A stretch of DNA of 62,426 nt. Origin: a virus. Its lineage: Duplodnaviria > Caudoviricetes. The notes under the pieces were generated by a model. That model did not search any database, was not told where the DNA came from, and was given only the letters and a program-made list of their open reading frames with translations. Position 1 is the first letter of the stretch. Every line of letters starts with the position of its first letter. Positions 5,722 to 50,274 of this stretch are shown here, piece by piece. The DNA lies in IMG/VR virus record IMGVR_UViG_3300005805_000090, positions 1 to 62,426 of that record. The stretch is one strand, 5' to 3'. The position numbers and the translations under genes are program-made.

Positions 5722-8700
5722 TGGATTTCAACGAGATAATAACATTTGAAGGTGGATTAAACACCGACGATACTCCACAGAGTATGCCCAAGGGCGATTA
5801 CCGAGACTTATCGTATTGTCGTATTGGTTATAATTCTGGAAACGCTTACTCTGTTGTTACCTCTCAAGGAACCCTTCTTATTGAAAATACGGAGATTACA
5901 TCTGTTGATAAAATATTAGGTGCGACCACATGGCAAAAAACAAATTCCATCGTATACTTTGTTTTTAAGGACGATGGAGAACATCAGATATGGGTTTATG
6001 ATATTTCAGCTCAAACCCACACCCTAGCGGTAGAGGGAGGCGAACTTAATTTTAGTCCGGACTGGCCGATTTATCACGCCAACATTATAGATGATATTTT
6101 GAAGTGGACTGACGGACGCTGGGATCCACAAATGTATGGTCCGGATGGCGAAAGACTATTTAACCCTCCGTATCAAATAAATCTAGCTAAGGCACTTGAA
6201 TCACCAAGCCCTAATGGTTTTTATACCGTAGTTGATCTTCAGACTATTGATGCGATTAAGTGGCCAATGGATCCTCCTATAGTGAGTTATTTTACGGACC
6301 CAACGCGACAGGACAATAAGCTCCGAAACAAACTATTTAAGTTCATAGTTCAGCCGATTTATGAAAATGGAGAGGTGGGTGCTTGGTCTATGTATTCTGA
6401 TTTACCGCTGCCGCAACAATCAGAACTTGTATCTGGAACTAACTGGCTATACCCAAACAATAGTAATGGAATAAAAATTCAATTTTACACAGGTCCCAAA
6501 ATAATACGCAAGTTCAATATAGCTGTTCAGCAATTTGATAAAGACAATTTTGGCGCGGAACCTCCGTTTGGAATTTTTTTACAACTTGATAAGGAACAAG
6601 ATTCGATATTAGACAATGAATTGTATTTTGTAGATTTCTATGGCGACGCAGCTTTGGCTCCCGCTATAGATTTTTTCAAGAACTATGATAGGCTTCCTAT
6701 AACAGCTGATTGTCAAGAGTACCTCCCAACGAGTCAATTGACGTATGTTAATTTCAGGGAAGGATACAATAAGCCTTCAGCAGAATATGAGCTGTTAAAT
6801 GTAAATGTTGGATACGATTTGAATGAAATAAATTGGAATCCAAATGCGGTAGTTACAATGGAGTTTATAGTGAACTTCCCCTCATTTACTAAGTATCTAA
6901 ATTATATAAATTTTCCCATATTAAGCCTTGAATCTGAAGTAGCTCAGTTTTTTAAATTTGCAGCAGGAAGCACGTTTTCAATGACCGTAAAAAATTACGG
7001 AACCTTTGTGTATACGATTACAGAATCTAATATACAAAACGCCCTGCAAGAATCTACAATTATATTGCAAAATCTTTACATAATGCAATTGATTGGGGAT
7101 GAATTTAGCAATCAATTTGGACTTCCGTTAGGAACGGCTGGCAATCTCATACTTCCAAGTGGAACTACAAACAGATGGGGCTATTATTGGACTAGCGGAA
7201 CCTTTTCCGTACAACAAGATGATCCTGTTCCTGGTTTTTCAATAAATACAATTTTTTCATCAATACCAGCAATCAATACAAATGCAGCCCCTTCGTTAAA
7301 ATCGGGAGCCACGCATAGTTTCGGGATTGTGTATGGGGATAGGGCTTATAGGGATAGCACTGTTTACACGGTAGATTCAATGGATCTTTTTGTTCCGTGG
7401 TTCTTTGATATAAATAGAGATGGGTTAAATGAAATCAATAATCCATTTACCATAACGCCTAATTTCACAATAAACCACATACCTCCAGTTTGGGCAACAA
7501 AGTATTGGATAGTCGCCAAGCCAGCCACTGAGGTTTTAGATTTCTCTCAATACACGACAAACAATATTGACGCCCCTTACACATCACACGTTTCTTCAAT
7601 TGTATTAGATTCAGCAACACAAAATAGATATAAGATAGTTTTAGACAATTATTATCTAACTCAAAACAAGGGGGCGGTAATAAGACATCAGATAAGAGTT
7701 GGGGACAAAATTAGGTTTATACGAAGAAGAGCCTCTGGATATTTTAACAATGCAAGTTTTATCCCATATCTCGAATACTTGGAGCTTGATGTTGTAGATT
7801 ACGTTGAGTCAGACGCCTCAAACGGAAATAGACAGGTTGTTTACACGAACTTATTTGATACATCACTTATCGATATTACAGATTTAGCAGGTGTAAATAA
7901 TCAACTTTTTGGTTCTTTAATAGAAATATACACACCTCGACCATCCGTTGACGATACTGGCAATATTTTCATAAGCCCTTGGAATGACATTAGTCAGGCT
8001 ATTGATATAAAAAACCCTCACACCAACGACAGATCTCACGCTTCCCCACCTAAAGCATACTTACAGGTTGGCAATGTTAATCCATATCCATCCTCTGTAT
8101 ATATTTACGTATATGGTGATAGTTCGGGATTGGCCTTTACATATCAAGATATAACTATTTATTATGATGATGGAACTACGGAAACTCAAATTGGAGCATA
8201 CATAAGTTCTGCGAATTATTATCAAAATTATAATACGACATTATTTGTTTTTTCAACCGTATCGGCTGATTCTTCTATGTCATACATAACAATAGATAAT
8301 CAATCTCAAGTTGTAACCGACCTAACATCAACATCTCCCGCCTCATTTGGACTTAATTACGGGGACGTGTATGTAAGACAGAGAAATTACCTAACCGGAT
8401 TGACGGGAAGCGATGCTATTGCTTATTATTACATAGAAGACCCAAACTATTCGGATTATTGGCAAAGCGATGTTCACAGTACGGGAAGATTAAGGATTGA
8501 AGATCAGAACGCCAAGATGGCTAATCGCCAGGCCACGGCAATTCATTCCGACTCATTTATTGCGGGAACACAAATAAATGGTTTATCTTCCTTTGCCTTG
8601 GATAATCAAAACATCCAAGACTTAAATGCCGTTTACGGCCCCGTAGTTAGAGCGTTTATGTCGGGCAGGGAGGGTAAGACGTTAAAGTGTCTTCAGCCCA

Positions 8701-12344: not shown

Positions 12345-15300
12345 ATGCCAGTATCACTAACTCCAGAAGAAAAAGATAAGTTATTAAAAGGGCTTACAAA
12401 ATATGCATCCGAGGGAGCAAATGACGACCAATTGCGTAAGTTCCGAGACGCCTTCATCTCTGAGTTAAAAAAAAAAGGGGGTGGACAACCCGTTTCTGGT
12501 GCGGATGTCGAGCGGCCTGGCAAGCCTTCTGCGCCGAGTTTTGGGCAGAAAGTAGTAAATGAAGCTATTACTGAAGATATTCAGGTCCCCTTAAGAGGCC
12601 AGCAAAAGCCTCCTGTGACCAAAAAGCCATACCAAGATATTTATTATAAACCCGAAGCTCTACCTTCTGAGACAACTCAAACTGTAGAAACTCCGGTTAT
12701 AAAGGCGGCAAAACAAGATTTTAAGCAAACTCAAATAAAGCCTATTGTAAAGCCTCCTGTCACCGAACAGGGGATAAAAGAGCTTGAGCAAGAAATAAAG
12801 CAACCAGATAAAACATTCCTTAAGTTCCAAGATTATCAGACAAGTATTGATGATTTAGATGAGCTTGAAAATCTATACGACGAGGATTTATCTAATTTCC
12901 AATTCAAGTTGAGCAGAAGGCCCGACCTATACGCTAAGTATTCGGGCAGAACTGAACAGGAAACTATTGATTTTTTTAATGCCCTCAACGACCCTAATGA
13001 ACTTAGACGTAATGAGGCGCAGGCACAATTTGATGTAGAAAGAAATGCTTTGTATGAAAATTTTGTAAATGATTATAAATCATTAAAATCAAAGCACGGC
13101 AAAATAGCATCTGAATTGGATGTTATGACCGACGGTTTAACTGATGAATTAGTCAATGAAAAAAATTACAAGAAATTCATGGCCAAAAGAGAGTTTGCTC
13201 TTACGCCAACAGGCGCAGAGACTTCTTTTGGTGAAGTGGTTAATATAGATGAAGTCGATAAAGTTGCCACAGAGGTTGTTGACAATTATGGTTTACCAAC
13301 GGATGGAGATGCTTGGAGGTTGATGAAGAATAAAATCAAGGCTAAAGTATTTAATGAATACATGAAGCCTAGGGTTGAGGAAGAGTTAAAAAGAACCAAA
13401 CCTGATTTATTGGCTAAAAGACAGCAAATATTCGAGGAAGGATTTAAGGTAGATGATGATATATATGCTAAGACTGATGCCGTATTGACAACTCTTCAAA
13501 ATGAATATGAGCAGGAAGCAAAAAAGGAAATGGATTTGATAAATTCAGAGTACGAGGGCAGATCAAAGCAGTTGAATCAAAATTACGAGCAGTACAATAA
13601 AGAAATAGAAAGGCAGCAATTATTGTTGAACAATATGTATAAAGCTGGTCAGATTGACCAACTTGGATATGAGTCTGCATTTAATAAACTAGAGGATGAT
13701 AAGAAAGCATACCATGCAGAATATGAGAAAAACTTCCCAAATTTTGATGAGTATGTAAAGAAATCAAACGAGATAAACTCAAGGTATAATAGAAAATTCG
13801 AAATACAAAAGAAAATTCTTACAGACAAAGCTCAAGCAGAACTTGAGATTGCATATAAAAAATACGCTGAGACATACCAAGAGGACCCTAAGATTCTTGA
13901 GGAATTAAATAATGCATACAAGGAAGCATACGACGCTGTAGCTAAGCGAGACGGTGAAATAATCAAGATGGGGGCATCAATGTCTATGAACCCTGTAAGC
14001 TCGCTATATAACTCAACAATGAGTGCTATGGGCGGAGTATTCAAGGGATGGGGTGGTTCTATTGACAACAAATCTTTAGAACTTCTTGGCGAAACAATGG
14101 AGCAGAACTTTTATATGCCTGCCGCAAAAACCGAAGACTTTTCGGACTGGACAGATCTTCAAAACCTTTCAATGATAACAGGACAGGTTGCGGGATCTAT
14201 GGGACCATCTATGATACCAACGGCAGCAGCAGCAGTCGGAGTCGCTTTTGCAACTGGCGGTCTTGGGCTTCCTGCGTCTGCTACTGTTGTCACTTCAGGA
14301 CTTGCGGGGGCATTAGCTGGGTGGGGGGCTGAAACGATTGACACTGCGGGAAGGGCTTATTTAGATGTTTTTGAAAGAAGCGGCGGTGATGTAGCAAGAG
14401 CAAATGAGGCGGCCAAGCGTTCTGTAAAGTCTCAGTATGACATTATGTGGTCATACTCTTTTGAGGCTCTTCCGTTTATAGGAAAAGCATTGAAGTTTGT
14501 CCCCACACAAGTCGGAAGGATTGGCGTTGGTGCTGCCGTTGAATTGGGCACAGAGTTTACTCAAGAAATTCGTCAGGGTATTGCCGAGGAAAACATAGTG
14601 GAACTTGAAAGAGATCCGTGGACTAATTTTGACGAAGCAATCAATGATGAAAGAAGAAGAAAGCAGACGTTGGTTTCAATAGGTCCTGTAGCAATTATGG
14701 GAGGTGCTGGGCAAATTGGATCTAAATCTATTCAACAGGAAAGAAGGGATGCATATATCGCTCAACAACAAAAGTCGGTTCTTTCCACTGCCTTACCCGA
14801 CCAAAGAAGGCAGTACATACAAAACATGGTCTTTAACAGAAATGGTAAGTTTGCCAATACTGTTATAGCATCATTGTACGCATCAGGAAAGATAGACGAG
14901 AGAGAGTCAGCAAACTTAATGCTTGAAATAAAAAGAGCAGAGCAGATTAAGGAGGCTGGCAAGTCTGCTGGACTTAGCGGCTCAAAACTTAATATTTACG
15001 GATTCTACAGCGCAAGAGCAGAAGAAGCAGAAAGAAATGCAGGCAGGTTTGCAGCAGATCCTATACTCTCCAAGTCTTATCAGGATATGGCAAAGCAATA
15101 TCGCGATGCCGGTGTTGAATTTATGAATGGAGGTTCTCCCGATTTATTAACTTTAACTTATGCAGATGGTTCACAGGCCATGATGCTTCCGGAGGATGTC
15201 AATGCCCTATTTGCCGATCCGATTGCGCTTTCGCTTTTGAATAAAAATGCAATATCAATTGAAGCATATAATGAAAAAGGTGAGGGGCCTAAAATAATTG

Positions 15301-18300
15301 AGGAACTAAAAGGTCGCGCTGAAACATACGCTAAAAAGAACCGATACACTCAGGCGTCCGAGATTGCATCACCAATGCAAACTCTGCGTCAGAATATCAA
15401 CCAAAGGATTAAAGAGCTGTATGCTGAACAAGTTGAGTTAACTGAAAAACAAAAGCGGCAAGAAGCCGAAAGAATAACACAAGAAGAAACCGCTGCTTTT
15501 GAACAAAAAGAGAAAGAGCGTCAACAAGAAGAGCGAGGTCAGAGAGATATTGAGATAGAGAGATTGCAACAACAACGGATGGCAATAGGCGTTAATGATA
15601 TTGATGCTTTCTTTAGTGATATGAAGCCACTTGTTGCAACTACGGTTGAACGATTGGAGCAAGGGAAAAACGCTCCACAGAGCGCTATAAAAGTTGCATC
15701 TGATTATTTATACGCTAAATATAAGGAGTTGACAGCAATGAAGTCCGACCCTAACCGGATGATGACCATTGCTCAGATTGAGTCTGTACAAGCTCAGATA
15801 GAACAAGATTTACAAACCTTGGCGGGAAATCCTCCGTCACAAAAAATACAAGTCAATGATCAAGAAAACATCCAAGGGGTATCAGGTGAAGTCGGAGTCG
15901 GGCAAGAACCTGTCGAAACCCAACCTATCGAAGTCCCAAGCACAGAAGAGGCTCCGGCAGGTGGAATACTTCAAGCACAAGGGCAAGAAGAAGTAGTAAC
16001 CCCACAGGTTACAGAAGAACCCGCCCCTAAGCCAGCCCGTAAGACTCGACTTGCCAAGATGTTTGGTGAGGAAGGGGAAGGGGAAACTACTGTGAAGATT
16101 TCCGAAACTGCACCCGCTGTAAGAAGGGTTGGTGCTGTTGAGGCTTCAGAGGGAAGTAACGAAGACGCCGGAATTGAAAGCGCACTTGAAGGTGTTGGAC
16201 TGGACGAAACTAAACTTGAAGATTGGAAGAGAAAAAATAAAGCTCCAAGCAAGAAGGGTAGGATTGAAGAGTTAACACAAGCCGTTCGCGACTTGATGTC
16301 TGGAAAGATTAAGTTCAAGGAATACTACGAAAAGGCCAAGCAACTAATCCCATCGAAATCGATGGAAAAAGTCCCTACTCCTGCTTCATTTGAGGAGGTT
16401 GTAGGTTCTATCGACAAGAATAAGTTGAAGATTGGTATCATAAATCTCAACAAATTTGTCAAAAAGGGCATGAATGTGGGCTTGAGAATTGATATTCCCG
16501 CATTCAATAATTTTGGAAAGAATGTAGTCACTGTTCATGATAGGACGGGTTCAGGTCAACCTGTTATTGGATATGGATCAACGGGTTCTATAAGTAATGT
16601 AAAATTCAGGACGAGTGTATCAACCGCCGCAAAAATTGGTGCTGGAGAGCAAAAGTCAGCGTTTGCTATGGCTGAAGGACAGTGGATGGACGAATCGCCG
16701 GAAAGCATTCAAAAGAGAGCAGAGGAAGCATTGAACTCGCCTGAATGGGTGCAAGTAGGCATGAACCCCACACGTAATAGCTTCTTCTTCGACAAGGCTG
16801 ACGGCAACCCGGTTGTTGCAGCGGATGAAGTTCTTCAAGTCGGAAACCTTGTTTTGGCAAAGAATCCTCAGAAGATTGACCTTAACACCAAAGAGGGCAT
16901 GGCGCAGTTTGAAAAGCAATTCAGCGCCAAGACAAAAGAGGGTGTTACATATCAGTACAGGACAAGTAAGCCATCACCAGGTGAGCGCATTGGAAAGATA
17001 TTTGAAACATCCGATGGCGAAGAAGCTGTTCCTTTAATTGAACAGGCTCTTTCTGAAAGCGGTATAAAAGTAGAGGTTAAGAATGATGCTGACTACAATA
17101 ATGATGACCGTATAAAACTTAGTCAGGGTAGTGGTTCAGAAGGTATGTTTGTGGCCGATGATGGAACTATTATCTTAAATCGAGATAAAATTAAGGGTGA
17201 GTGGGGTAAAACTATTGTATTCCACGAGGGTATTCACCCTGTAATAAATATCATCCGGAACACCGATCCAAAGCGATACAGAGCAATCGTAGATGGACTC
17301 AAGGAAGAGGCTGCGAGAAACACTGAGGTTGCTAAAGCCGCTGCCGACATTGCCGCTTCTGAGGAGTATCAAAGAAGAGGTCCTGAGAGCATTGAAGACG
17401 AGACCATTGTTGAGACTATGGCTCGTGTGGCTACTGGCGATGTTGATATCAACACATTCAAGCCTTCGTTCCGTGAGAAGTTCATTGAGTTCATGAACGA
17501 TATAGCTAAGGTATTTGGAATAAGACGTATTGCCTTAAACTCTCAACGAATGGAAGTGAAGCGTTTGGCTGATCAGATCAACAAAATGCTGAATGAGGGC
17601 GGTAAGGTTAGTGATGTTGTAGGGAAGAAGAATGTAAAAGAATTCCAGAACAAGATAATTTTAGATGATACAAACTCTGTTTTTTCAAACACAAGCTCTC
17701 AAGCCAGATTTGAAATGAGGTTTTTGGAAGACTCCGAAGACTTTGCTAAATTGATAGAAGAAGGGCGTGTAGTTCACAATGCAAGTTTAGATGACATAAA
17801 CGGAGAAACTGTTGTTATTCATAATCCAGACAACTTTTCAACTGGGGATATTAAGTTTAGGGGGAAAGATCTTGTAAAGGGTGAAGGCGGTGTTTATTTT
17901 GTTTTGTTGTACAATGATGTATGGGCCTCTGGTAAAAAATCAAGCGCATCACAATTAGCCGCTTTGATAAATGAATCATTACAAAAATCAACTGATGGTA
18001 AGGGTCGATTGGTTTTAGTAAAAGGAGATGCAAGTAAGAATCTAACGAGCGTTAAAGGGGCCAAGGCCCTTATGGGCGTTATGGAGATTTTGGCAGACGA
18101 CGGCTTGATTCCACTGAGTGCTTTTAGAAAAGCATTGAACATTGCTGGAAAGAAGTACGGCATCAATTTCGACGGAAGAAACGATGCTAAATCTATACAC
18201 AAGGATATTCAGGATAAATTTATGAACGTATCTAATTCATCTTTTGAAAGAAGAGGTGATTTCGTTCGTGATGTAATTGATGCTATAGCTGATCAAAATG

Positions 18301-20252
18301 TATTATCTAAGGAAGCTATAGCGGAAATCGCTGAATCTATTGGTGCTAAAAGGAAAATGACTACATTCTCTAAAGCAAGCATCCTTGATTCTGTTGCTTA
18401 TGCGACTAGCGAAAGAATGCTCAGAGACATTCCTAATTCTCATGTATACGCTGTAATAGAAACATCCTCAAAGGTAAAACCTGAATTCATAGGTAAGCAT
18501 GAGTCTTATCCATGGCATATAGTTACTGAAGATGGAAGCAAGCCTATTCTTTATATACTTAAAGACAGACCATTTTATAATGATGCGTTTGTAGCTGCTA
18601 AAAGCACTGAGAAAGTAAAAGAAGGGGAAAGGTTTGGTGACATTAGTCGAGCTGGATTGGCGCAAAGAGGTATGGGACTTGCTAAAGTGGATACCAAGAC
18701 GGCTGGCCAACCATCCATAGACATCAAGCGCACTGGTAAATATGAAGCACTGCCCGGTGCGCCAACGCTCAAAGATGCCACCGGTCCTATTCCCGAACTT
18801 GTTGACGTGGCTGAAAGTTATGCTAAGAAGTTTGGAGTACCATATACCCGTCAGGCTGAGTACGTGCAAGTAGACGAGGATTTTGCAAAGAGTATTGCCA
18901 AGGCTTACGAAGAGATGAAGCATAATCCCACTGATCCTAAGGTGAAGGAGGCTTATGATGATTTAATTCGTCAAACGACTGACCAATACAACGCCCTTAC
19001 GGAGGCTGGATATGAATTCACATTCTTTGACGGCGAGACTGATCCGTATAATGGAAATCCCGTAGATGCAATGCGTGACTTACGAGCCAATAAGAAAATG
19101 GCCGTATATGGAACATACGCTGGATACGGAACGGGAAGTGAACTCAATATTGGACTTGACGATCCATCGGGAGGTCCAAGGCTTAGCGTAGATGAGGTTT
19201 TGAAGGCCGTAAAGAAAGCCGGAGGAGAAGTAATCAGCAGTTCTGTTTACGCTTCAGACACGGAGCCTACGCTTGTTGTTAAACTCAAGACAAAACTTGA
19301 CGATAAGTCGGCAACTAAACTTTCAACGGATCTTGGCCAGGAATCTATTGCTCAAAGATTTGATGATGAAACAGGCAAAATTCATGGTCCACAGGCTGAA
19401 AAATGGGGAGAATTTGATCCCAAGTTTTTTATAACCTCAGACGGAAGAAGGGCGTCAGAAACTTCAAACCCAATGCTTGAGGACACGGGATTGCAGTGGC
19501 CTGATCAAAACGGCGAAATGCATAAGGTTACTGCCAATGATTTGTTCCGAGCAGTCTACGATGCGTTTGGTCACGGGTTGGAAGGTGCTGGCTTTAGAGC
19601 AAGAGGAGAGGAGAATGCATGGCAGGCTCATGCTCGATTGTTTACTGGACCAGCCGTGGCTGCGATTACAACTGAAACACGAGGTCAGAACAGTTGGTTG
19701 AATTACGGTCCTTATGGCGAACAAAACAGAAAGGCAAAGGTTCAAGACACCATCTTTGCAGAGCAGAAAACAGGGCTGATGCCTGAGTGGACTTGGACAG
19801 AGAATGTGGCGCCACCAATGGAGGAGTCTAAGGAAGGCGTTAAGGGGCAGCCATCAATGGTGAAGCGTACTCCAGCCCAGATCAGACAAGCCGTAGAAGA
19901 TGGGGTAGACGCAGTTGAGGAGGCAATTGCTGATGGCATGGATCCACAGCAGGCTGTTGACGAGAACATTTCAAATCAGGATTGGTATGGCGATTTGAGT
20001 GCCACTCAAAAAGAACAACTGAATGAAATTCTTCAGGACGAGTTTGGAGTTACGGCGAGTGAACCTAAACTACAGAACAATGCCCAGCGTGTAGCTGATC
20101 TTTGGGAAAAGGGTGGAAAAGAAGCTAAGGCGGAGATTAAGAACATTTTGGAGACTGACCCTGAACTTTCGTACATTTACAACAATTTCCCGAAGATAAC
20201 TAAGCAGTTACAGGAACAGGGATTGTTGACTAAAACAGAGAATTGTCCATGA
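12345..20252 (+). CDS. Giant polyvalent internal virion protein
   Basis: 2635 aa; coiled coils, hydrophobic Gly/Ala segment, zincin motif VFHEGIHP with downstream E, and an NDLFRAVYDAFGH...RGEENAW...ETRGQNSW domain. Confidence 0.7.
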   Translation: MPVSLTPEEKDKLLKGLTKYASEGANDDQLRKFRDAFISELKKKGGGQPVSGADVERPGKPSAPSFGQKVVNEAITEDIQVPLRGQQKPPVTKKPYQDIYYKPEALPSETTQTVETPVIKAAKQDFKQTQIKPIVKPPVTEQGIKELEQEIKQPDKTFLKFQDYQTSIDDLDELENLYDEDLSNFQFKLSRRPDLYAKYSGRTEQETIDFFNALNDPNELRRNEAQAQFDVERNALYENFVNDYKSLKSKHGKIASELDVMTDGLTDELVNEKNYKKFMAKREFALTPTGAETSFGEVVNIDEVDKVATEVVDNYGLPTDGDAWRLMKNKIKAKVFNEYMKPRVEEELKRTKPDLLAKRQQIFEEGFKVDDDIYAKTDAVLTTLQNEYEQEAKKEMDLINSEYEGRSKQLNQNYEQYNKEIERQQLLLNNMYKAGQIDQLGYESAFNKLEDDKKAYHAEYEKNFPNFDEYVKKSNEINSRYNRKFEIQKKILTDKAQAELEIAYKKYAETYQEDPKILEELNNAYKEAYDAVAKRDGEIIKMGASMSMNPVSSLYNSTMSAMGGVFKGWGGSIDNKSLELLGETMEQNFYMPAAKTEDFSDWTDLQNLSMITGQVAGSMGPSMIPTAAAAVGVAFATGGLGLPASATVVTSGLAGALAGWGAETIDTAGRAYLDVFERSGGDVARANEAAKRSVKSQYDIMWSYSFEALPFIGKALKFVPTQVGRIGVGAAVELGTEFTQEIRQGIAEENIVELERDPWTNFDEAINDERRRKQTLVSIGPVAIMGGAGQIGSKSIQQERRDAYIAQQQKSVLSTALPDQRRQYIQNMVFNRNGKFANTVIASLYASGKIDERESANLMLEIKRAEQIKEAGKSAGLSGSKLNIYGFYSARAEEAERNAGRFAADPILSKSYQDMAKQYRDAGVEFMNGGSPDLLTLTYADGSQAMMLPEDVNALFADPIALSLLNKNAISIEAYNEKGEGPKIIEELKGRAETYAKKNRYTQASEIASPMQTLRQNINQRIKELYAEQVELTEKQKRQEAERITQEETAAFEQKEKERQQEERGQRDIEIERLQQQRMAIGVNDIDAFFSDMKPLVATTVERLEQGKNAPQSAIKVASDYLYAKYKELTAMKSDPNRMMTIAQIESVQAQIEQDLQTLAGNPPSQKIQVNDQENIQGVSGEVGVGQEPVETQPIEVPSTEEAPAGGILQAQGQEEVVTPQVTEEPAPKPARKTRLAKMFGEEGEGETTVKISETAPAVRRVGAVEASEGSNEDAGIESALEGVGLDETKLEDWKRKNKAPSKKGRIEELTQAVRDLMSGKIKFKEYYEKAKQLIPSKSMEKVPTPASFEEVVGSIDKNKLKIGIINLNKFVKKGMNVGLRIDIPAFNNFGKNVVTVHDRTGSGQPVIGYGSTGSISNVKFRTSVSTAAKIGAGEQKSAFAMAEGQWMDESPESIQKRAEEALNSPEWVQVGMNPTRNSFFFDKADGNPVVAADEVLQVGNLVLAKNPQKIDLNTKEGMAQFEKQFSAKTKEGVTYQYRTSKPSPGERIGKIFETSDGEEAVPLIEQALSESGIKVEVKNDADYNNDDRIKLSQGSGSEGMFVADDGTIILNRDKIKGEWGKTIVFHEGIHPVINIIRNTDPKRYRAIVDGLKEEAARNTEVAKAAADIAASEEYQRRGPESIEDETIVETMARVATGDVDINTFKPSFREKFIEFMNDIAKVFGIRRIALNSQRMEVKRLADQINKMLNEGGKVSDVVGKKNVKEFQNKIILDDTNSVFSNTSSQARFEMRFLEDSEDFAKLIEEGRVVHNASLDDINGETVVIHNPDNFSTGDIKFRGKDLVKGEGGVYFVLLYNDVWASGKKSSASQLAALINESLQKSTDGKGRLVLVKGDASKNLTSVKGAKALMGVMEILADDGLIPLSAFRKALNIAGKKYGINFDGRNDAKSIHKDIQDKFMNVSNSSFERRGDFVRDVIDAIADQNVLSKEAIAEIAESIGAKRKMTTFSKASILDSVAYATSERMLRDIPNSHVYAVIETSSKVKPEFIGKHESYPWHIVTEDGSKPILYILKDRPFYNDAFVAAKSTEKVKEGERFGDISRAGLAQRGMGLAKVDTKTAGQPSIDIKRTGKYEALPGAPTLKDATGPIPELVDVAESYAKKFGVPYTRQAEYVQVDEDFAKSIAKAYEEMKHNPTDPKVKEAYDDLIRQTTDQYNALTEAGYEFTFFDGETDPYNGNPVDAMRDLRANKKMAVYGTYAGYGTGSELNIGLDDPSGGPRLSVDEVLKAVKKAGGEVISSSVYASDTEPTLVVKLKTKLDDKSATKLSTDLGQESIAQRFDDETGKIHGPQAEKWGEFDPKFFITSDGRRASETSNPMLEDTGLQWPDQNGEMHKVTANDLFRAVYDAFGHGLEGAGFRARGEENAWQAHARLFTGPAVAAITTETRGQNSWLNYGPYGEQNRKAKVQDTIFAEQKTGLMPEWTWTENVAPPMEESKEGVKGQPSMVKRTPAQIRQAVEDGVDAVEEAIADGMDPQQAVDENISNQDWYGDLSATQKEQLNEILQDEFGVTASEPKLQNNAQRVADLWEKGGKEAKAEIKNILETDPELSYIYNNFPKITKQLQEQGLLTKTENCP

Positions 20253-20755
20253 TGACACCTAATAAACTCGATAAGAAAGCCGTTGATCTACTCATCCCGC
20301 GAATGAAGGATGAGTACAACGCATTTTACTTCTACCGTGCCGCCAGCAACTGGTGTCAGGGTGTTGGTTTTTTCCAAGCCGCCAAGTTCTTTGCTGCTGA
20401 ATCGCAGGACGAGCTTGAACACGCAAAGAAGATTGAGGATTACATCACCGACTGGAATGTGATTCCGGAACTTCCTACAGTGGCTCGCCCACAACTAGAA
20501 TTTTCTAGCATCGTAGAAGTTTTGGAAGAGGCTTACAAAATCGAGTATGACTTGTACGAGGCTTACGAGGAGACGTCGAAGAAACTTTTCGAGATTGACC
20601 TGTGCGTGTTTGACTTTCTCCAACCATTGCGGTTGATACAGAACAAGTCTGTTGCTGAGTACAGCGACAAACTTAACCTGCTCGAAGGAGTAGAGGGTAC
20701 TGATAAGTTCAAAGCACTGTTGTTGGAAGAAAAGTTATTCCCCGTAAATGGCTAA
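20249..20755 (+). CDS. Ferritin-like di-iron protein (non-heme ferritin type)
   Basis: DEYNAFYFY...AAKFF..ESQDELEHAKKI...KIE...FLQ..RLIQ ferroxidase-like residues; ATGA overlap with the giant gene. Confidence 0.85.
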   Translation: MMTPNKLDKKAVDLLIPRMKDEYNAFYFYRAASNWCQGVGFFQAAKFFAAESQDELEHAKKIEDYITDWNVIPELPTVARPQLEFSSIVEVLEEAYKIEYDLYEAYEETSKKLFEIDLCVFDFLQPLRLIQNKSVAEYSDKLNLLEGVEGTDKFKALLLEEKLFPVNG

Positions 20756-41719: not shown

Positions 41720-41813
41720 TGTATTGTGATTTAAGTTGTTTCATAGGTAAGGGGAGTGCGAGCCGTTGCCGCTCCTCCCCTCTCGTTGCATTACGAGCCC
41801 TGCGATGCAGGAG

Positions 41814-41858
41814 AACATGGCGGGGGAATCGAACCCCCGCTTGCTCCATAGCCATGTT
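41814..41858 (-). ncRNA. Mini tRNA-elbow-like element
   Basis: AACATGG-CTATGGAGCAA-GCGGGG GTTCGATT CCCCCG-CCATGTT. Confidence 0.55.
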
Positions 41859-41863
41859 GGTTT

Positions 41864-43426: not shown

Positions 43427-43964
43427 TGTTCTCCGTATTTAGATTTCAATGTGTAGTAGTCGTATGCGTTCTCCGTGTACATATCGCATAACGTTTCCTC
43501 TTCGAGGTAGAATCGCTCGACCTCTTGTCCGTAATAGATTCGCATCACGAAGTCGTGAAGCGAAGGGAAGATGATGGCCTCGCCGTCCTTGATATAGACG
43601 TGTATAGCGTTGCCGTTGTTGTCGTGGCGAACCTCGTATAACTCGTCCGCTTTTTGAAGATGCTCGTTGTGTATCATATTGATTAGTTGTTATTGATTAA
43701 TATTTTGCTTTCGTTTGTGCATTCATACCATTGGCCGTCGTGCTTCTCATACCACTCGCCCTCGTCTTCATAGTCCCACTCAGTATAGCAGTAGGCGTCG
43801 TCGTCGTATGCCTCGTCGAGGTCGGCATAGCCAATCTCGATAGCGTAGCGTTCAGCGTCCTCCTCGTCAATGAAGTACATGAGGCTCTCTTCGAATAGGT
43901 ATCCCTCATTCATACCCTCGTTTGTGGCGGAGCATATCCGCGCAAATCTTTCTGTTGTTTCCAT
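43423..43964 (-). CDS. Two acidic early proteins (43423-43677, 43683-43964)
   Basis: High D/E/Y content. Confidence 0.65.
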
Positions 43965-43975
43965 GTTGTGTTATG

Positions 43976-44562
43976 ATTTAGAAACAGGGGCAGGAGTCGA
44001 ACCCGCCCTTGCACCATGCCTGTTTAGATGATTGAATAAACCGCGTGATTTGCGATGGCTTGCGCCGTGAGACGTGCATAGGTTGCTCGTTGAGTCTCAG
44101 TGCCAGCATCCTGTGGCTCAGGAAGGTCGATGACCTTATCGAGGTCGACTGAGTAGATAGCACGTTGGCGGTTGTGAATGCCGAATTCAGCGGCCTCCTC
44201 GATAGTATCGAAGTAACGGCTAACGTCTAGCACTAGCTTTCCGCCTTCCCACCAACCGCCAATGTAGTTGTCATCCTGCTCTAGCATAAGGCCGTTGGTT
44301 GCAATGAAGTCACGAACGTGCTGTGCAATCATTTCAGCCTGCAAATGCCGCTTGTAGCGAATAAATGAGACGGGAAGGTCAGCAATGTACTCGCGTCCAT
44401 AAACCGACGCAAATGCGCCTGTGGTTGGTACGTCGTGAGTAAGGTGGTAAGTAGCCCCGTTGCCCGCAACGAGGGACTCGACAAAAGTGTTGAGGTTCAT
44501 ATGATATTGAAATTTAGAAACAGGAGCGGGAATCGAACCCGCTCTTGCACCATGCCTGTTTA
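43976..44562 (-). repeat. 51-bp direct repeats (43976-44026, 44512-44562) forming T-arm-like hairpins and flanking one gene
   Basis: 47/51 identical; the differences preserve pairing. Confidence 0.85.
44024..44500 (-). CDS. Conserved phage early protein (GxW...LDVS...Q.AIY family)
   Basis: Start revised to MNLNTF (44500). Confidence 0.65.
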   Translation of the reverse strand: MNLNTFVESLVAGNGATYHLTHDVPTTGAFASVYGREYIADLPVSFIRYKRHLQAEMIAQHVRDFIATNGLMLEQDDNYIGGWWEGGKLVLDVSRYFDTIEEAAEFGIHNRQRAIYSVDLDKVIDLPEPQDAGTETQRATYARLTAQAIANHAVYSII

Positions 44563-44805
44563 AATGCCGTGGAATAACTGCCCGTCGTTGAACCATGGCT
44601 GATATTCACCATGGTCGGCAATCATGTCGTCTAGTTCGTAGAAGTCAGTAGTCGCGGCCAATTTCATTTCATGGCACACTGCGATGACTGGGTGTTCGTC
44701 ACCTCGTGTCGGATGCTCGTAGAACTCGATGAGTTGACCTGCATCGTTAATCATTTCGCCGTACTTGGTTGGCTCAAGAGCCATGAGTTTTGTGTAGTTT
44801 AACAT
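44560..44805 (-). CDS. First early protein (IEFYEHPTRGDE family)
   Basis: First ORF after the long structured leader. Confidence 0.65.
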   Translation of the reverse strand: MLNYTKLMALEPTKYGEMINDAGQLIEFYEHPTRGDEHPVIAVCHEMKLAATTDFYELDDMIADHGEYQPWFNDGQLFHGI

Positions 44806-44826
44806 TGCTGTATGTATTAAAGATTA

Positions 44827-45282
44827 GAACAACGCGGGGACTCGAACCCCGTGCGATATTGGCGACCTCAGTCATCCAATATTGCCGCGCCTTGCGTCGT
44901 TGCTATAGTTGTTTAATTTGCGGCACGTTTGCCTTTGCGAGCAGTCACGTTGTTAGTGTTAACTGCTCCCCACATTACTGCGGGACTTGTATTGCGCTGT
45001 TGCGCTTTTTTTCGGGCCATAGCGGTACTCCGTTTGTTACTCCCATGCTATTTGCACGGCTCTGGCAAGTTTTACCCGTAGCTCCTAACCTTGCTACTAA
45101 CTGGTTGCCGAATGTTGTCGGCTATTTGCGGGCTTGCTCCCGTCGCGTCGTCGCCTTCGCGCTTACCCTTTTTTGATTGTCGCAGTAAGGGAATCAAAAC
45201 TGCTAGCTATCTTTCAACTTTCACAGGCCTCACGGGCTACTACTCGCTACGGGTGATTTGAGCACTCCGTTGTTCCGTTGAA
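44827..45282 (-). ncRNA. ~450-nt structured non-coding leader ending in a tRNA-like domain
   Basis: TATCTTTG promoter at 45288-45295; no credible - strand ORF; long-range 9-bp helix 45246-45254/45074-45082; many hairpins; 3' T-arm. Confidence 0.55.
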
Positions 45283-46179
45283 CGGCGCAAAGATATGGGC
45301 AAGTGATTGTTTCAATGCAAATTTTAAAAACCTTTTAAAACACCTGTGTTTACAGGGCATTCAAAAATGCGACCTTCTGAAACCCGCGCCAAATCAGACT
45401 AAAAGTAGATTGCAACTTTTTTTTAAATTATTTTCAGTTTTTGAGGAATGACGCGGGTTGTAGAGCGAAAATTTTTTTTAAAAAAGTTGCATTTTTCTTG
45501 GAAGCCGCGTAAACATTGACTATCTTTGTAAGCAATAGTGCTAAAAGCAGCGTCAGTATTGAGATACAGGCCGGCGGGAGAAAGTCAAAAATGGGCGTTT
45601 TAGGTATGGTCGCTAGCTGTTGTAGAGGGTAGGAAACAGGCCAAAAGGCCAAACACACAGCAAACGCTCTGAAACGCAAGCACAGCGCGGGATTGAAGGA
45701 ATTTGTTATTAAATGGCATAACTTCTCGGAAACGCAGTTCACAGGATATCAGATAGGGTAAAACAAGCAAGCCAACAGCAGGCAATCAGGCAGGTCATGC
45801 GCGGGCAAATCCACAGCGAATCCTCCTAGGTAATACACAGACAAGAGAGAGACAAGCAAAGAGCAATAACAGCACTCATGCGCGCTCGCACATTAGGCCA
45901 ACCACAACTGAGGTTACCCCAACCAAAAAGCACAAGCATTGCTTGCATCGCAGTATTGGCGCGGGTTTCAGGCAGTTTCTGTGGCGTTGGATGACTATTG
46001 CGAGCGGGTTGTTTGGGCGGCATGGGGTGCATGAATGAGCAGGATATAACGTGCTTAAAACTAACACGTTGGTGCTTTAATGCAAAGTGGTTGATTATCA
46101 GTAGGTTAGTCTACTTTCTCCACGGGGCGGAGACAAGTTTACCCGCGCAGTGGGCAGGGCTGTTCATGGCGGCAGGTCG

Positions 46180-46214
46180 GCAGGATATCGGGGCGCAGGA
46201 TATCGGGGCGCAGG
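46180..46214 (+). repeat. Tandem 15-bp repeat GCAGGATATCGGGGC x2.3
   Basis: Read directly from the sequence. Confidence 0.9.
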
Positions 46215-46473
46215 TCGTCGCGCTGTTAGCTGTGCAAGATAGCAGGCAGGTTGTGCGGCAATACAACTCGTCATCAGGTTGTAGTATTACACAACGCTAC
46301 AGCCCGCATTGTTCCACGCTTGCACTGCTATGTTCCACGATATCTATCTTACTGATAGTCAATGAGTCATATATTGGCGGCACAATGAACGTAACTGACT
46401 GATAATCAACCCCACCCCTTTTGCCAAATCGACTTCGGGAAGGGGACAGGGCAGAGGCTGTGGGGGGAGGGAC

Positions 46474-46550
46474 CCCAACCATTCTGAGTTTATGGAATGT
46501 TAAACCCAACCAAAGTGAGTTTATAAATTCCCCAACCGTTCTGAGTTTAT
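46474..46550 (+). repeat. Three 20-bp direct repeats CCCAACCnnnnTGAGTTTAT
   Basis: 46474-46493, 46505-46524, 46531-46550. Confidence 0.9.
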
Positions 46551-46588
46551 AGATTTTCGATAAACTTTGTATAAATGACGATCTTGCA

Positions 46589-46596
46589 TATATTTG
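46589..46596 (+). promoter_or_regulatory. Bacteroidota -7 promoter element TATATTTG for the basic-protein operon
   Basis: TTTG about 19 nt upstream; ATG at 46606. Confidence 0.7.
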
Positions 46597-46605
46597 TAAA
46601 AAATA

Positions 46606-50026: not shown

Positions 50027-50040
50027 TTCGTTTGTTTTAG

Positions 50041-50114
50041 TAGCCAGGACACGATTCGAACGTGTATCTCTTAACCTTGTGGGCGCAGCGCGTCTACCAT
50101 TCCGCCACCTGACT
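50041..50114 (-). tRNA. tRNA-like element lacking a paired anticodon arm
   Basis: Acceptor AGTCAGG/CCTGGCT, D arm GGCGGAATGGTAGACGC, T arm ACACG-TTCGAAT-CGTGT. Confidence 0.6.
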
Positions 50115-50167: not shown

Positions 50168-50274
50168 TGGCAACCAGAACAGGATTTGAACCTGTATTGG
50201 GGGCATTGTCGCGAGTTGCTCTCCCACTCTCCGTTAACTGTCCTAAGGGCGTCTACCAATTCCGCCATCTGGTT
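50168..50274 (-). tRNA. tRNA-like element with an expanded non-canonical centre and encoded CCA
   Basis: Acceptor AACCAGA/TCTGGTT-G-CCA, D arm GGCGGAATTGGTAGACGC, T arm ACAGG-TTCAAAT-CCTGT. Confidence 0.6.

What the first reader, a model, noticed from the sequence alone, without database searches (positions are those of the whole stretch)
44827..45282. ~450-nt ORF-free structured RNA at the head of the early operon
Seen: a consensus promoter (TATCTTTG at 45288-45295, with TTG upstream) is followed by about 480 nt before the first ATG (44805). The stretch has a long-range helix ACCCGTAGC/GCTACGGGT (45246-45254 with 45074-45082) enclosing several hairpins. It also has a TTTTGATT/AATCAAAA stem whose loop CCCTT can pair with the adjacent AAGGG (pseudoknot), a repeated AACA(A)ACGGAGT, and a GAGCAGT/ACTGCTC stem. 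It ends in a tRNA-like domain (44827-44904: acceptor AGCAACG/CGTTGTT, stemless D loop, long helix, GGGG-TTCGAGT-CCCC T arm) reminiscent of the tmRNA TLD. Inference: a large phage ncRNA or antitermination leader, possibly an undescribed class.
Basis: partly seen in the sequence, partly recalled or inferred. Interest (0 to 1): 0.7.

Follow-up and report, generated by a model that had tools for sequence, protein, structure and literature searches.

The report
Phage leader RNA ending in tRNA mimic
A freshwater phage starts one of its operons with a roughly 460-base non-coding, folded RNA that ends in a tRNA look-alike, and in related phages such look-alikes swap places with self-cutting ribozymes, which suggests they are cut-here signals that divide a long message into pieces.

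Summary
On the minus strand, a conserved Bacteroidota-type promoter (45288-45295) is followed by a non-coding leader (no ORF conserved; substitutions lack codon periodicity). The leader ends in a 78-nt tRNA-like cloverleaf at exactly 44827-44904.

Covariation in relatives supports the cloverleaf (15 of 29 pairs with double changes, 22 sequences). It also supports ten hairpins in the first ~250 nt (14 of 52 pairs, 12 sequences). No Rfam family matches.

The same operon carries three acceptor/T-arm "minihelices" after genes. In relatives, hammerhead ribozymes with intact cores occupy the same intergenic slots. Homologous downstream genes are preceded by cloverleaf, minihelix or hammerhead interchangeably, at matching distances from the start codon.

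Best reading: these are interchangeable RNA-cleavage modules, and the cloverleaf separates a structured leader RNA from the first cistron. Cleavage by host RNase P/Z is inferred, not shown. The function of the leader body is unknown: bodies are swappable between constant ends and precede at least six different first genes. I found no prior description of this arrangement.

The parts
45288..45315 (-). Promoter: -7 box TATCTTTG (45295-45288) and a TTG 17 nt upstream (45315-45313), Bacteroidota type
   Evidence: Sequence. A TAnnTTTG-like box sits at the same distance from the cloverleaf in relatives. It is the only minus-strand TAnnTTTG between 41399 and 48508. The motif alone is not rare (78 found against 54.9 expected). 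That this motif is the Bacteroidota -7 consensus is recalled knowledge.
45268..45283 (-). Constant 5' end: hairpin GTTC-AACG-GAAC (45283-45272). It overlaps an 8-mer GAACAACG (45275-45268) that is complementary to the 3' acceptor strand of the cloverleaf.
   Evidence: Shared by leaders whose bodies are unrelated. No compensatory double change was seen, so its role is open.
45034..45287 (-). Leader body, module A: ten helices. P1 45277-45272/45200-45195; H1b 45269-45263/45255-45250; H2 45240-45234/45229-45223 (GTGA loop); H3 45191-45186/45171-45166; H4 45161-45158/45147-45144; H5 45142-45139/45132-45129; H6 45122-45118/45111-45107; H7 outer 45105-45102/45077-45074 and inner 45097-45093/45082-45078; H8 45059-45054/45048-45043.
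   Evidence: Alignment A9, 12 sequences (3 of them partial): 99.3% of cells paired, 14 of 52 pairs with double changes, 0 of 500 shuffles as high, slid controls 0-2. 8 of 10 helices have at least one double change. P1 and H1b never vary, so they are untested. L174 was not used to derive the model and fits it.
44905..45033 (-). Leader body, module B (includes the hairpin GAGCAGT...ACTGCTC and the conserved CAACTAT just before the cloverleaf). It is replaced by unrelated sequence in some relatives.
   Evidence: conserved in WIN, L049, L012 and L007, partly in L047, and replaced in L045, L034 and L043. In L174 the hairpin stem is longer and the loop differs.
44827..44904 (-). tRNA-like cloverleaf: 7-bp acceptor AGCAACG/CGTTGTT, 3-4 bp D stem with an A(A/T)GG loop, 13-pair anticodon-like arm ending in a 4-nt loop, 5-bp T stem with a TTCGAGT loop, and a discriminator-like C.
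   Evidence: A1, 12 sequences: 96.8% paired, 11 of 29 pairs with double changes, 0 of 500 shuffles. A8, 22 sequences, model-fitted: 94.6% paired, 15 of 29, 0 of 500. The MFE is the cloverleaf. It is the only copy in the window. ARAGORN and Rfam do not call it a tRNA.
44560..44826 (-). 21-nt A/T-rich spacer (44826-44806) and first cistron (ATG 44805, stop ends 44560; 81 aa; PHROG 11770, function unknown)
   Evidence: Third-position excess of substitutions.
44518..44561 (-). Minihelix m1 (acceptor stem plus T arm, linker CATGGTGCAA). It overlaps the stop codon of gene 1 and lies 17 nt before the ATG of gene 2.
   Evidence: R1 73.2 bits. Family covariation in A3: 97.6% paired, 7 of 13 pairs with double changes, 0 of 500 shuffles.
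43982..44025 (-). Minihelix m2, overlapping the stop of gene 2 and 17 nt before the ATG of gene 3
   Evidence: R1 70.2 bits.
41813..41859 (-). Variant minihelix m3 (AACATGGC/GCCATGTT), followed by a conserved structured tail running to about 41720
   Evidence: R1 40.6 bits. Sequence. The same element and tail occur in relatives.

Best explanation
The stretch is the non-coding first segment of a leftward operon of small genes, presumed early, in a freshwater phage of Bacteroidota.

Transcription from the promoter at 45288-45295 gives an RNA with three parts:
- a constant 5' hairpin;
- a structured but evolutionarily swappable body (here about 380 nt, built from local hairpins);
- a 78-nt tRNA-like cloverleaf.

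The cloverleaf is one of several interchangeable 'cut-here' modules placed 12-25 nt upstream of start codons in this phage group. The others are acceptor/T-arm minihelices, real tRNAs and hammerhead ribozymes.

I infer that the polycistronic transcript is cleaved at these modules: by itself at hammerheads, and by the host's tRNA-processing nucleases (RNase P on the 5' side, and RNase Z or similar on the 3' side) at the tRNA mimics. This would detach the leader RNA from the first cistron. It would also give each downstream cistron a short, A-rich, unstructured 5' leader, and leave upstream fragments with a structured 3' end.

Shown: non-coding status, conserved structure, modularity, the swaps and the matching spacing.

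Inferred: that cleavage occurs, which enzymes act and on which side, and that the released leader RNA is stable and has a function of its own. That function is unknown. It is probably operon-level or trans-acting rather than specific to gene 1.
For: Non-coding.
- No ORF is shared by all 8 full-length leaders.
- There is no codon periodicity: 23/24/28, against 16/13/36 in gene 1.
- No PHROG or Pfam hit for the overlapping ORFs.

Structure.
- Cloverleaf.
- Module A.
- Minihelices.

tRNA mimicry.
- A 7 + 5 bp acceptor/T stack, a UUCGANU T loop and a GG in the D loop.

Hammerheads in the same slots.
- 8 distinct sequences by regex in relatives, a ninth in L030 and a tenth in L164.
- The catalytic core is invariant, 100% of cells are paired, 7 of 16 pairs carry double changes, and 0 of 500 shuffles reach this.
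- Rfam Hammerhead_1 scores 26.5 bits, E = 5e-4, for L034.

Natural swaps (56 distinct element-plus-downstream rows: 19 cloverleaf, 28 minihelix, 9 hammerhead).
- MKKRF...: cloverleaf (L011), minihelix (L007), hammerhead (L047).
- MANMC...: cloverleaf (L037), minihelix (L014).
- M(S/T)NKDFIKALRS...: cloverleaf (L033), minihelix (L035).
- M.(N/Y)TTFNIGLNNNP...: cloverleaf (L012), minihelix (L039).
- MTTQ(D/E)FIQQL...: cloverleaf (L014, L015, L052), minihelix (L051).
- MTT(A/Q)KL...: minihelix (L044), hammerhead (L030).

Spacing to the ATG.
- Cloverleaf 14-23 nt (19 rows).
- Standard minihelix 13-25 nt (18 rows).
- Hammerhead 9-17 nt from its end, which is 15-23 nt from the cleavage site (9 rows).
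- A real tRNA at 50041-50114 is followed by CTAA and, 14 nt after its discriminator, an ATG.

Leader as a unit.
- Family I leaders precede at least 6 different first genes.
- Three unrelated bodies share the 5' end and the tRNA-like 3' end.

Literature.
- Hammerheads flank genes in prophages. In haloviruses HF1/HF2 one lies 13 nt upstream of the first early ORF, with a mapped 5' end nearby (PMC3088659, passages).
- t-elements act as RNase P/Z signals at mRNA ends (PMC1920247, abstract).
- RNase P cuts phage C4 RNA and polycistronic mRNAs (PMC11143913, passages).
Against: - No RNA ends were observed. The only RNA library holding a relative is kept as contigs, and one 636-nt contig runs unbroken from gene 1 through the cloverleaf into the leader. 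That is either an uncut precursor or DNA carry-over.
- The window itself has no hammerhead, so the swap argument rests on relatives.
- The hammerheads score below Rfam's gathering score (26.5 against 34), and the others were not reported at E <= 0.1 in a 41.8-kb scan.
- The minihelix 5' strand overlaps the upstream stop codon (stop-to-element distance about -2 nt in most rows). RNase P cutting at the helix end would remove part of the stop codon, which favours 3'-side cutting or no RNase P step.
- The minihelix coaxial stack is 13 bp, not 12.
- No CCA is encoded.
- The cloverleaf is much more conserved than a mere cleavage signal needs: the acceptor is nearly invariant, CAACTAT lies upstream, and the inner loop is conserved. 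This hints at an added role.
- The phage encodes no recognisable RNase P, RNase Z, CCA-adding enzyme or RtcB among 35 ORFs scanned. Host enzymes must therefore be assumed, and the host is unknown.
Confidence: 0.55

Rival explanations
1. The leader is a cis-acting regulatory leader (processive antitermination, attenuation, or a ligand or protein switch). The tRNA-like hairpins would act as terminators or pause sites that the leader-modified polymerase reads through, with no cleavage needed.
For: It sits directly after the promoter. The consensus scan flags the cloverleaf T arm and both minihelices as terminator-like, a GC-rich stem followed by a T-rich run. A 5' 8-mer can compete with the local acceptor strand for the 3' strand, which could form a switch.
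Against: Hammerheads in the same slots carry no T run after them. The T-loop and D-loop tRNA signatures are not needed for termination. The same leader precedes at least 6 different first genes, and unrelated bodies share the ends. No known antitermination or riboswitch family matches.
Confidence: 0.13
2. The tRNA mimics are not cut. They would act as stabilising or insulating structures, or as ribosome-recruiting elements for a host without Shine-Dalgarno use, that keep each start region unstructured. The leader would be a long structured 5' UTR.
For: Constant 12-25 nt A-rich spacing to the ATG. An RNA-library contig spans the cloverleaf uncut.
Against: Interchange with a self-cleaving ribozyme whose catalytic core is invariant in 8 of 8 sequences is hard to explain without cleavage. 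The tRNA-specific features (T loop, GG in the D loop) point to tRNA enzymes.
Confidence: 0.1
3. The cloverleaf, alone or with the leader, is a trans-acting tRNA mimic. It could be a decoy or inhibitor for host tRNA-directed enzymes or tRNA-targeting defences, or an RNase P-processed regulatory RNA like P1/P7 C4 or P4 CI.
For: The cloverleaf is very strongly conserved, beyond what base pairing alone requires. C4 RNA is an RNase P substrate made from a phage transcript (PMC11143913, passages). That C4 and CI arise from operon leaders is recalled knowledge.
Against: No anticodon-type loop. Antisense 10-mers to the cloverleaf elsewhere in the genome are at chance level: 5 found against about 4 expected by my estimate. 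No Rfam C4 hit. This reading does not explain the minihelices or the hammerhead swaps.
Confidence: 0.1
4. The conserved elements matter at the DNA level, as recombination boundary sequences for cassette shuffling or as part of an origin, and the RNA folds are incidental.
For: Elements lie exactly at mosaic junctions between relatives. DNA contigs of relatives show joints at them (44025>44827, 44559>44820, 44914>45269, low-stringency joints with short sides, so only a hint). An ORF-poor repeat-rich region lies just upstream.
Against: Compensatory changes keep the pairs, including G-U pairs on the sense strand. The tRNA T-loop consensus and the hammerhead core are strand-specific RNA features. 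All copies share the orientation of the operon.
Confidence: 0.06
5. The whole roughly 460-nt RNA is one giant tRNA- or tmRNA-like molecule whose acceptor stem is closed by its 5' and 3' ends.
For: An 8-mer at a fixed distance (13-15 nt) from the -7 box is complementary to the 3' strand. Among the 16 correctly parsed rows it pairs at 8/8 in 11, 7/8 in 3 and 6/8 in 2. WIN's own 5' end reads GAACAACG. The MFE of the full leader uses this pairing.
Against: No double compensatory change. When the 3' strand changes (L037, L051, L055) the 5' motif does not follow. In the short-leader group the variable positions sit in the loop of a local hairpin. The local acceptor strand does covary in L164 (GAAACG/CGTTTC) and L072 (AACAACG). 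There is no tag ORF, no G3:U70 pair and no Rfam tmRNA match.
Confidence: 0.05

Closest known systems
Plant-mitochondrial t-elements and the mitochondrial tRNA punctuation model
   Same: tRNA-like structures built from an acceptor stem and a T arm lie at mRNA boundaries and are thought to signal RNase P/Z cleavage (PMC1920247, abstract). Here too, stop codons abut the element.
   Different: This is a bacteriophage operon and the host enzymes are unknown. The elements are interchangeable with hammerheads. Cleavage has not been shown. That the mitochondrial elements abut incomplete stop codons is recalled knowledge.
MALAT1-mascRNA / MEN-beta (a long ncRNA whose 3' end is made by RNase P at a tRNA-like element)
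   Same: A long structured non-coding RNA is followed directly by a small tRNA-like cloverleaf. The weak Rfam hits are to this family (24.7-30.7 bits).
   Different: The scores are below the gathering score of 42.5, so it is not a member. This is a prokaryotic virus, and protein-coding cistrons follow the element. The MALAT1 mechanism is recalled knowledge and was not read here.
Hammerhead ribozymes flanking genes in prophages, and HHphage of haloviruses HF1/HF2
   Same: Hammerheads sit in phage intergenic regions a few nucleotides upstream of start codons of early polycistronic transcripts, and have been proposed to process them (PMC3088659, passages).
   Different: That work does not describe tRNA mimics in the same slots in the passages I read. 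Here the two kinds replace each other in front of homologous genes.
P1/P7 C4 antisense RNA and P4 CI RNA
   Same: Small structured phage RNAs that RNase P cuts out of a longer transcript (C4: PMC11143913, passages).
   Different: No Rfam C4 match, and no antisense target above chance. Details of C4 and CI biology are recalled knowledge.
GOLLD and ROOL large phage ncRNAs
   Same: Large, ornate, non-coding RNAs of unknown function encoded by phages, often next to tRNAs. GOLLD sometimes has tRNAs in its linker (bioRxiv 10.1101/2024.12.08.627333, passages).
   Different: No Rfam match. This body is a chain of local hairpins with swappable modules, with no evidence for a conserved global fold.

Membership tests
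tRNA (Rfam RF00005 / ARAGORN) | 7-bp acceptor stem and 5-bp T stem with a UUCRANY loop | tested here: met
tRNA (Rfam RF00005 / ARAGORN) | 5-bp anticodon stem with a 7-nt anticodon loop | tested here: not met
   The arm has 13 pairs and ends in a 4-nt loop (UGAG, CGAG or UGCG).
tRNA (Rfam RF00005 / ARAGORN) | Detected by the tRNA models | tested here: not met
   ARAGORN and Rfam call only 50040-50114, plus 50171-50274 with lax filters. Neither calls 44827-44904.
tmRNA tRNA-like domain | Acceptor stem formed by the 5' and 3' ends of the molecule | tested here: inconclusive
   A 5' 8-mer complement exists without covariation. The local strand covaries in L164 and L072.
tmRNA tRNA-like domain | Tag reading frame, and a match to the tmRNA model | tested here: not met
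   ARAGORN finds no tmRNA. Rfam tmRNA scores 14.1-18.5 bits against a gathering score of 47.
tmRNA tRNA-like domain | G3:U70 alanine identity pair (recalled knowledge) | tested here: not met
   The pairs are A1-U, G2-U and C3-G.
tRNA-like processing signals (t-elements, mascRNA) | Acceptor/T-arm coaxial stack with a tRNA-type T loop at a boundary between RNA units | tested here: met
tRNA-like processing signals (t-elements, mascRNA) | Cleavage by RNase P and/or RNase Z | not testable with these tools
   Only contigs of one RNA library were available.
tRNA-like processing signals (t-elements, mascRNA) | Rfam mascRNA-menRNA gathering score | tested here: not met
   24.7-30.7 bits against 42.5.
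Hammerhead ribozyme (elements in relatives, none in the window) | Catalytic core CUGANGA...GAAA...NUH with three stems | tested here: met
   The core is invariant in 8 of 8 sequences. Stems are 100% paired, with 7 of 16 pairs carrying double changes.
Hammerhead ribozyme (elements in relatives, none in the window) | Rfam gathering score | tested here: not met
   Hammerhead_1 26.5 against 34; RAGATH-1 hammerhead 27.8 against 56.3. The others were not reported at E <= 0.1.
Hammerhead ribozyme (elements in relatives, none in the window) | Self-cleavage | not testable with these tools
   Needs an in-vitro transcription assay.
Known large or leader RNA families (GOLLD, ROOL, C4, riboswitches, antitermination RNAs) in Rfam 15 | Match to any curated covariance model | tested here: not met
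   No hit on the leader at gathering scores, nor at E <= 10 over 43500-46500 apart from chance-level hits. The same holds for 9 relatives' loci.
Intrinsic terminator | GC-rich hairpin followed by a U run | tested here: inconclusive
   The consensus scan flags the three T arms, with 9 sites found against 5.1 expected in the region. Hammerheads in the same slots lack a U run.

The most novel reading that the evidence does not exclude
A group of freshwater Bacteroidota phages builds its operons from cassettes separated by interchangeable RNA-cutting modules: tRNA mimics read by host RNase P/Z, and self-cutting hammerheads. The first 'cassette' is not a gene but a new class of roughly 400-nt structured non-coding RNA, released with or at a tRNA-like 3' handle. 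This would be a prokaryotic-virus counterpart of MALAT1-mascRNA. It would also be a natural experiment that assigns a function, cistron separation, to phage hammerheads.
Probability: 0.35. Interest if true: 0.85.

Novelty: new variant of a known kind. Interest (0 to 1): 0.72.

Why it matters
The biological role of genomically encoded self-cleaving ribozymes in bacteria and phages is described as still open (PMC6765202, passages). Here tRNA mimics and hammerheads replace one another in front of homologous genes, at the same distance from the start codon. That makes 'cistron separation' directly testable with simple cleavage assays and module swaps.

It would also extend tRNA punctuation, known from organelles, to phage operons in a phylum whose translation initiation does not rely on Shine-Dalgarno pairing (recalled knowledge). 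And it adds a conserved, covariation-supported, roughly 400-nt phage RNA of unknown function to the short list of large structured non-coding RNAs.

My library searches found no description of this arrangement. Only listings were seen for most of those papers, and supplements were closed.

Tried and rejected
- **Rfam.** At gathering scores the window gave only a tRNA at 50041-50114. The permissive scans gave only sub-threshold hits.
- **blastn.** 44000-46000 against 50,697 phage records: no match.
- **Bacterial genomes.** The minihelix pattern had 0 hits. The cloverleaf pattern had 6 hits, all chance.
- **Chance pattern hits dropped before any count.** L036, L040, L046, L053, L057, L058 and L060. 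L017 and L018 look like ordinary tRNAs. Most of the 119+ hits of the 15-mer scan were also dropped: only 5 had promoter context, and 2 of those are truncated.
- **Antisense targets of the cloverleaf.** At chance level.
- **Small ORFs.** A 35-50 aa ORF occurs only in WIN, L049, L012 and L007 and is frameshifted in L047. A 25-aa ORF occurs in L049, L012, L007 and L047 but not in WIN.
Not conserved.
- **5'-3' closure.** Not demonstrated. The WIN row of that script, and, picked a wrong internal box, so WIN's 5' end was read instead.
- **Thermodynamic z-score of module A.** Not significant (-0.69).
- **Family II leaders.** Only 5 sequences; 6 of 73 predicted pairs carry double changes, which is weak.
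- **RNA library X20.** Contigs end 5-7 nt inside m1 and m2, but DNA contigs break at the same elements. This is not evidence of processing, and depth cannot be compared.
- **Joints in DNA run X5.** Obtained at 80% likeness, three of them with sides of 29-30 letters: a hint of mosaicism only.
- **More distant relatives L003-L005.** They have other arrangements upstream of the gene 1 homologue.
- **Not used.** Structure prediction, complex prediction and the large protein searches, because the question is about RNA.
Full report
**What the window is.** The window is a whole IMG/VR virus record of 62,426 bp, estimated 95% complete. Its terminase is only about 25% identical to those of Flavobacterium, Cellulophaga and Maribacter phages. 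Its DNA is held almost completely by lake-water metagenome runs; run X2 was laid and has three contigs at 99% identity or more. The promoter type TAnnTTTG points to a Bacteroidota host; that this is the Bacteroidota consensus is recalled knowledge. The finding lies on the minus strand, at the head of a long leftward run of small ORFs of unknown function. 'Early' is an inference from that layout.

**Checking the observation.**
- TATCTTTG is at 45295-45288, with a TTG 17 nt upstream.
- The two arms of ACCCGTAGC/GCTACGGGT are in place.
- The TTTTGATT/AATCAAAA stem and the CCCTT/AAGGG pairing are present.
- The tRNA-like domain is at 44904-44827.

The octamer TAnnTTTG is not rare in this genome: 78 matches against 54.9 expected. 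The promoter call therefore rests on a matching box at the same distance from the tRNA-like domain in relatives.

The stretch is not free of ATGs or small ORFs. Sense-strand ORFs of 23, 35, 20 and 17 aa occur. None is kept in all 8 full-length relatives. The 35-50 aa ORF is seen only in the four closest sequences, is frameshifted in L047, and is absent in three. Variable alignment columns fall 23/24/28 over the three phases (p = 0.76). Gene 1 downstream shows 16/13/36 (p = 7e-4). The overlapping ORFs hit no PHROG or Pfam family. The region is non-coding.

**Is it structured?** Thermodynamics alone is unconvincing. The z-score is -2.42 for the 480-nt leader and -0.69 for its first 254 nt. The evidence is comparative.

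I collected relatives in three ways:
- through the downstream protein;
- through DNA motifs in viral contigs;

Seven pattern hits without the element were dropped.

For the 78-nt domain, 12 distinct long-type sequences give a cloverleaf with 96.8% of cells paired. Of its 29 pairs, 11 have changes on both sides. No shuffle of 500 reaches this, and slid controls give 0-1. A model-fitted alignment of 22 sequences gives 94.6% paired and 15 of 29; because it is fitted to the model it leans towards the structure.

The D stem (3-4 bp), the long anticodon-like arm and the T stem all covary. The acceptor stem is almost invariant in these sets. It does change in a compensated way in L164 (GAAACG/CGTTTC), and on one side in L072 (AACAACG) (read directly). 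The MFE fold of the window's copy is exactly this cloverleaf.

For the leader body, the first ~250 nt (module A) is shared by 12 sequences, three of them partial. A model of ten local helices gives 99.3% paired. Of 52 pairs, 14 have double changes, with 0 of 500 shuffles as high and slid controls at 0-2.
- I derived this model partly from eleven of these sequences, which inflates the paired fraction.
- L174 was found afterwards. It fits the model and supplies a compensatory change in a helix that had been invariant.
- Two 5'-proximal helices never vary, so they remain untested.

A local hairpin using the same 3' strand covaries instead. The TTTTGATT stem has one pair broken in 8 of 9 and no covariation. 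The CCCTT/AAGGG pairing is kept as CCCTCT/AGAGGG in relatives.

The cloverleaf is not alone.
- Two 44-nt direct repeats lie right after genes 1 and 2 (44561-44518 and 44025-43982).
- A variant lies at 41859-41813.
- Each folds as an acceptor stem stacked on a T arm, with a short GG-containing linker.
- Sixteen distinct copies from relatives are 97.6% paired, with 7 of 13 pairs carrying double changes and 0 of 500 shuffles as high.
- A covariance model finds exactly these three in the window, all on the operon's strand.
- The same model finds 2-3 clustered copies in each of five relatives' genomes.
- A real tRNA (50041-50114) precedes another gene in the same way: CTAA, then an ATG 14 nt after the discriminator.

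A sub-threshold Rfam hit then led to hammerhead ribozymes in relatives.
- There are eight distinct sequences by a structural regex, plus one in L030 and one in L164.
- All are intergenic.
- The core CUGAUGAG...CGAAAC...GUC is invariant.
- The stems are 100% paired, with 7 of 16 pairs carrying double changes and 0 of 500 shuffles as high.
- Only L034's was scored by Rfam: Hammerhead_1 at 26.5 bits, below the gathering score of 34.
- The window itself has none.

**The swap.** One search lists 56 distinct element-plus-downstream combinations: 19 cloverleaf, 28 minihelix, 9 hammerhead. Homologous downstream genes are preceded by different modules.

| Downstream gene | Modules found upstream |
|---|---|
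| MKKRF... | cloverleaf (L011), minihelix (L007), hammerhead (L047) |
| MANMC... | cloverleaf (L037), minihelix (L014) |
| M(S/T)NKDFIKALRS... | cloverleaf (L033), minihelix (L035) |
| M.(N/Y)TTFNIGLNNNP... | cloverleaf (L012), minihelix (L039) |
| MTTQ(D/E)FIQQL... | cloverleaf (L014, L015, L052), minihelix (L051) |
| MTT(A/Q)KL... | minihelix (L044), hammerhead (L030) |

Distances to the start codon also agree:
- cloverleaf: 14-23 nt;
- standard minihelix: 13-25 nt (18 rows);
- hammerhead: 9-17 nt from its end, which is 15-23 nt from its cleavage site.

Ten rows are variant minihelices followed by a conserved structured tail. In four of them the 'ATG' the script found lies inside that tail and is not a gene start. 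Those ten rows are left out of the spacing range.

**How it most likely works.** A hammerhead cuts itself. A tRNA-shaped element is what RNase P and RNase Z recognise. Both kinds sit in the same slot, at the same distance from the next start codon. The simplest reading is that all of them are cleavage modules dividing the polycistronic transcript, and that the cloverleaf detaches the leader from gene 1.

The matching spacing suggests that the relevant cut at the tRNA mimics is on their 3' side, giving the downstream cistron a short A-rich leader as the hammerhead does. An RNase P cut on the 5' side is possible for the cloverleaf, since a U precedes the acceptor stem. It is awkward for the minihelices, whose 5' strand overlaps the upstream stop codon. 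None of this cutting is shown.

The only RNA library with a relative is stored as contigs. One contig runs through the cloverleaf uncut. The phage encodes no recognisable RNA-processing enzyme among 35 ORFs scanned.

**The leader body.** Leaders fall into unrelated body families that share only the first ~20 nt and the tRNA-like end.
- Family I, the window's type: 380-408 nt from the promoter box to the cloverleaf.
- Family II: a modular network of 257-396 nt.
- A third type, in L164.

Family I leaders stand in front of at least six different first genes. The body is therefore not a gene-specific control element. It behaves like a non-coding 'first cassette' tied to the operon start. Its function is unknown. 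No known RNA family matches it.

An unexplained detail is the 8-mer near the 5' end. It is complementary to the 3' acceptor strand in every leader examined, but shows no compensatory change.

**Comparison with what is known.** The closest working analogues are:
- plant-mitochondrial t-elements and mitochondrial tRNA punctuation (PMC1920247, abstract);
- MALAT1-mascRNA (recalled knowledge; only weak Rfam similarity);
- hammerheads flanking prophage genes, and the HF1/HF2 hammerhead 13 nt upstream of the first early ORF (PMC3088659, passages);
- RNase P-processed phage RNAs such as C4 (PMC11143913, passages);
- large phage ncRNAs next to tRNAs, GOLLD and ROOL (bioRxiv 10.1101/2024.12.08.627333, passages).

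The element is not a member of tRNA, tmRNA, mascRNA, C4, GOLLD or ROOL by the tests run. Seven library searches found no description of tRNA mimics interchanging with hammerheads in phage operons, nor of this leader. Supplements were closed and could hold related hammerhead alignments.

**Verdict.** This is a real, conserved, structured non-coding leader RNA ending in a true tRNA mimic. It is part of a previously unnoticed modular punctuation system. I rate it a new variant of a known kind, with interest 0.72 and confidence in the processing mechanism 0.55.

Noticed in passing
window 50041-50114 and 50171-50274 (minus strand): Two tRNA genes lie in a ~380-nt intergenic gap. The first (Rfam 41 bits; ARAGORN calls it Cys, anticodon ACA) is followed by CTAA, with an ATG 14 nt after its discriminator. 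That is the same layout as after the tRNA mimics. The second (35.9 bits, found only with lax filters) is about 104 nt long, has a Leu-type D arm, a long insert and an encoded CCA.
   Followed up: partly
window 45296-46600: An ORF-poor 1.3-kb region lies between the divergent leftward and rightward operons. It holds three 24-nt tandem-like repeats (46473-46553), a 15-nt perfect tandem (46180-46209), a perfect 16-nt inverted repeat (45377-45392 / 45956-45971) and a 33-nt AT-rich inverted repeat (45403-45499). The ORFs in it hit no family. It is a candidate origin or control region, and parts of it are conserved in relatives.
   Followed up: partly
window 41720-41812 (minus strand), and relatives L012, L035, L043, L032, L030, L039, L044: The variant minihelix m3 is followed by a conserved structured tail of about 95 nt. 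It has the hairpins CCTGC-ATC-GCAGG (CTGCT-CAC-AGCAG in relatives), CTCG-TAATGCAA-CGAG and GGGGAG...CTCCCC before the next gene. Its function is unknown.
   Followed up: no
window 45268-45275 with 44827-44834: The 5'-terminal 8-mer GAACAACG is a perfect complement of the cloverleaf's 3' strand CGTTGTTC. It sits at a fixed distance from the promoter in every leader examined, including those with unrelated bodies. Its changes are mostly G-U compatible, but none is compensatory. It could be an alternative pairing or switch, or a relic of an insertion.
   Followed up: partly
L012:2636-2687, L034:2319-2370, L039:1208-1259 and 2004-2055, L047:1190-1241, L032:8681-8732 and 7913-7971, L043:7318-7376, L164 (about 490-545 nt after its leader start): Type I hammerhead ribozymes with intact cores sit in the operons of relatives. 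Most score below Rfam thresholds, so they are probably missed by standard annotation.
   Followed up: yes
window 44518-44561 and 43982-44025: MFE folds of the minihelices add a 3-bp mini D-like hairpin (GCA-UGG-UGC) between the acceptor and the T arm. The variant type has GCU-AUGG-AGC at that place, which would be a compensatory change. This was not tested formally.
   Followed up: no
window 20243-20755 and 12345-20252: A ferritin-like/rubrerythrin-domain protein (Pfam E = 3e-20) is encoded inside the block of very large virion-type ORFs, next to a 2635-aa ORF with almost no family matches.
   Followed up: no
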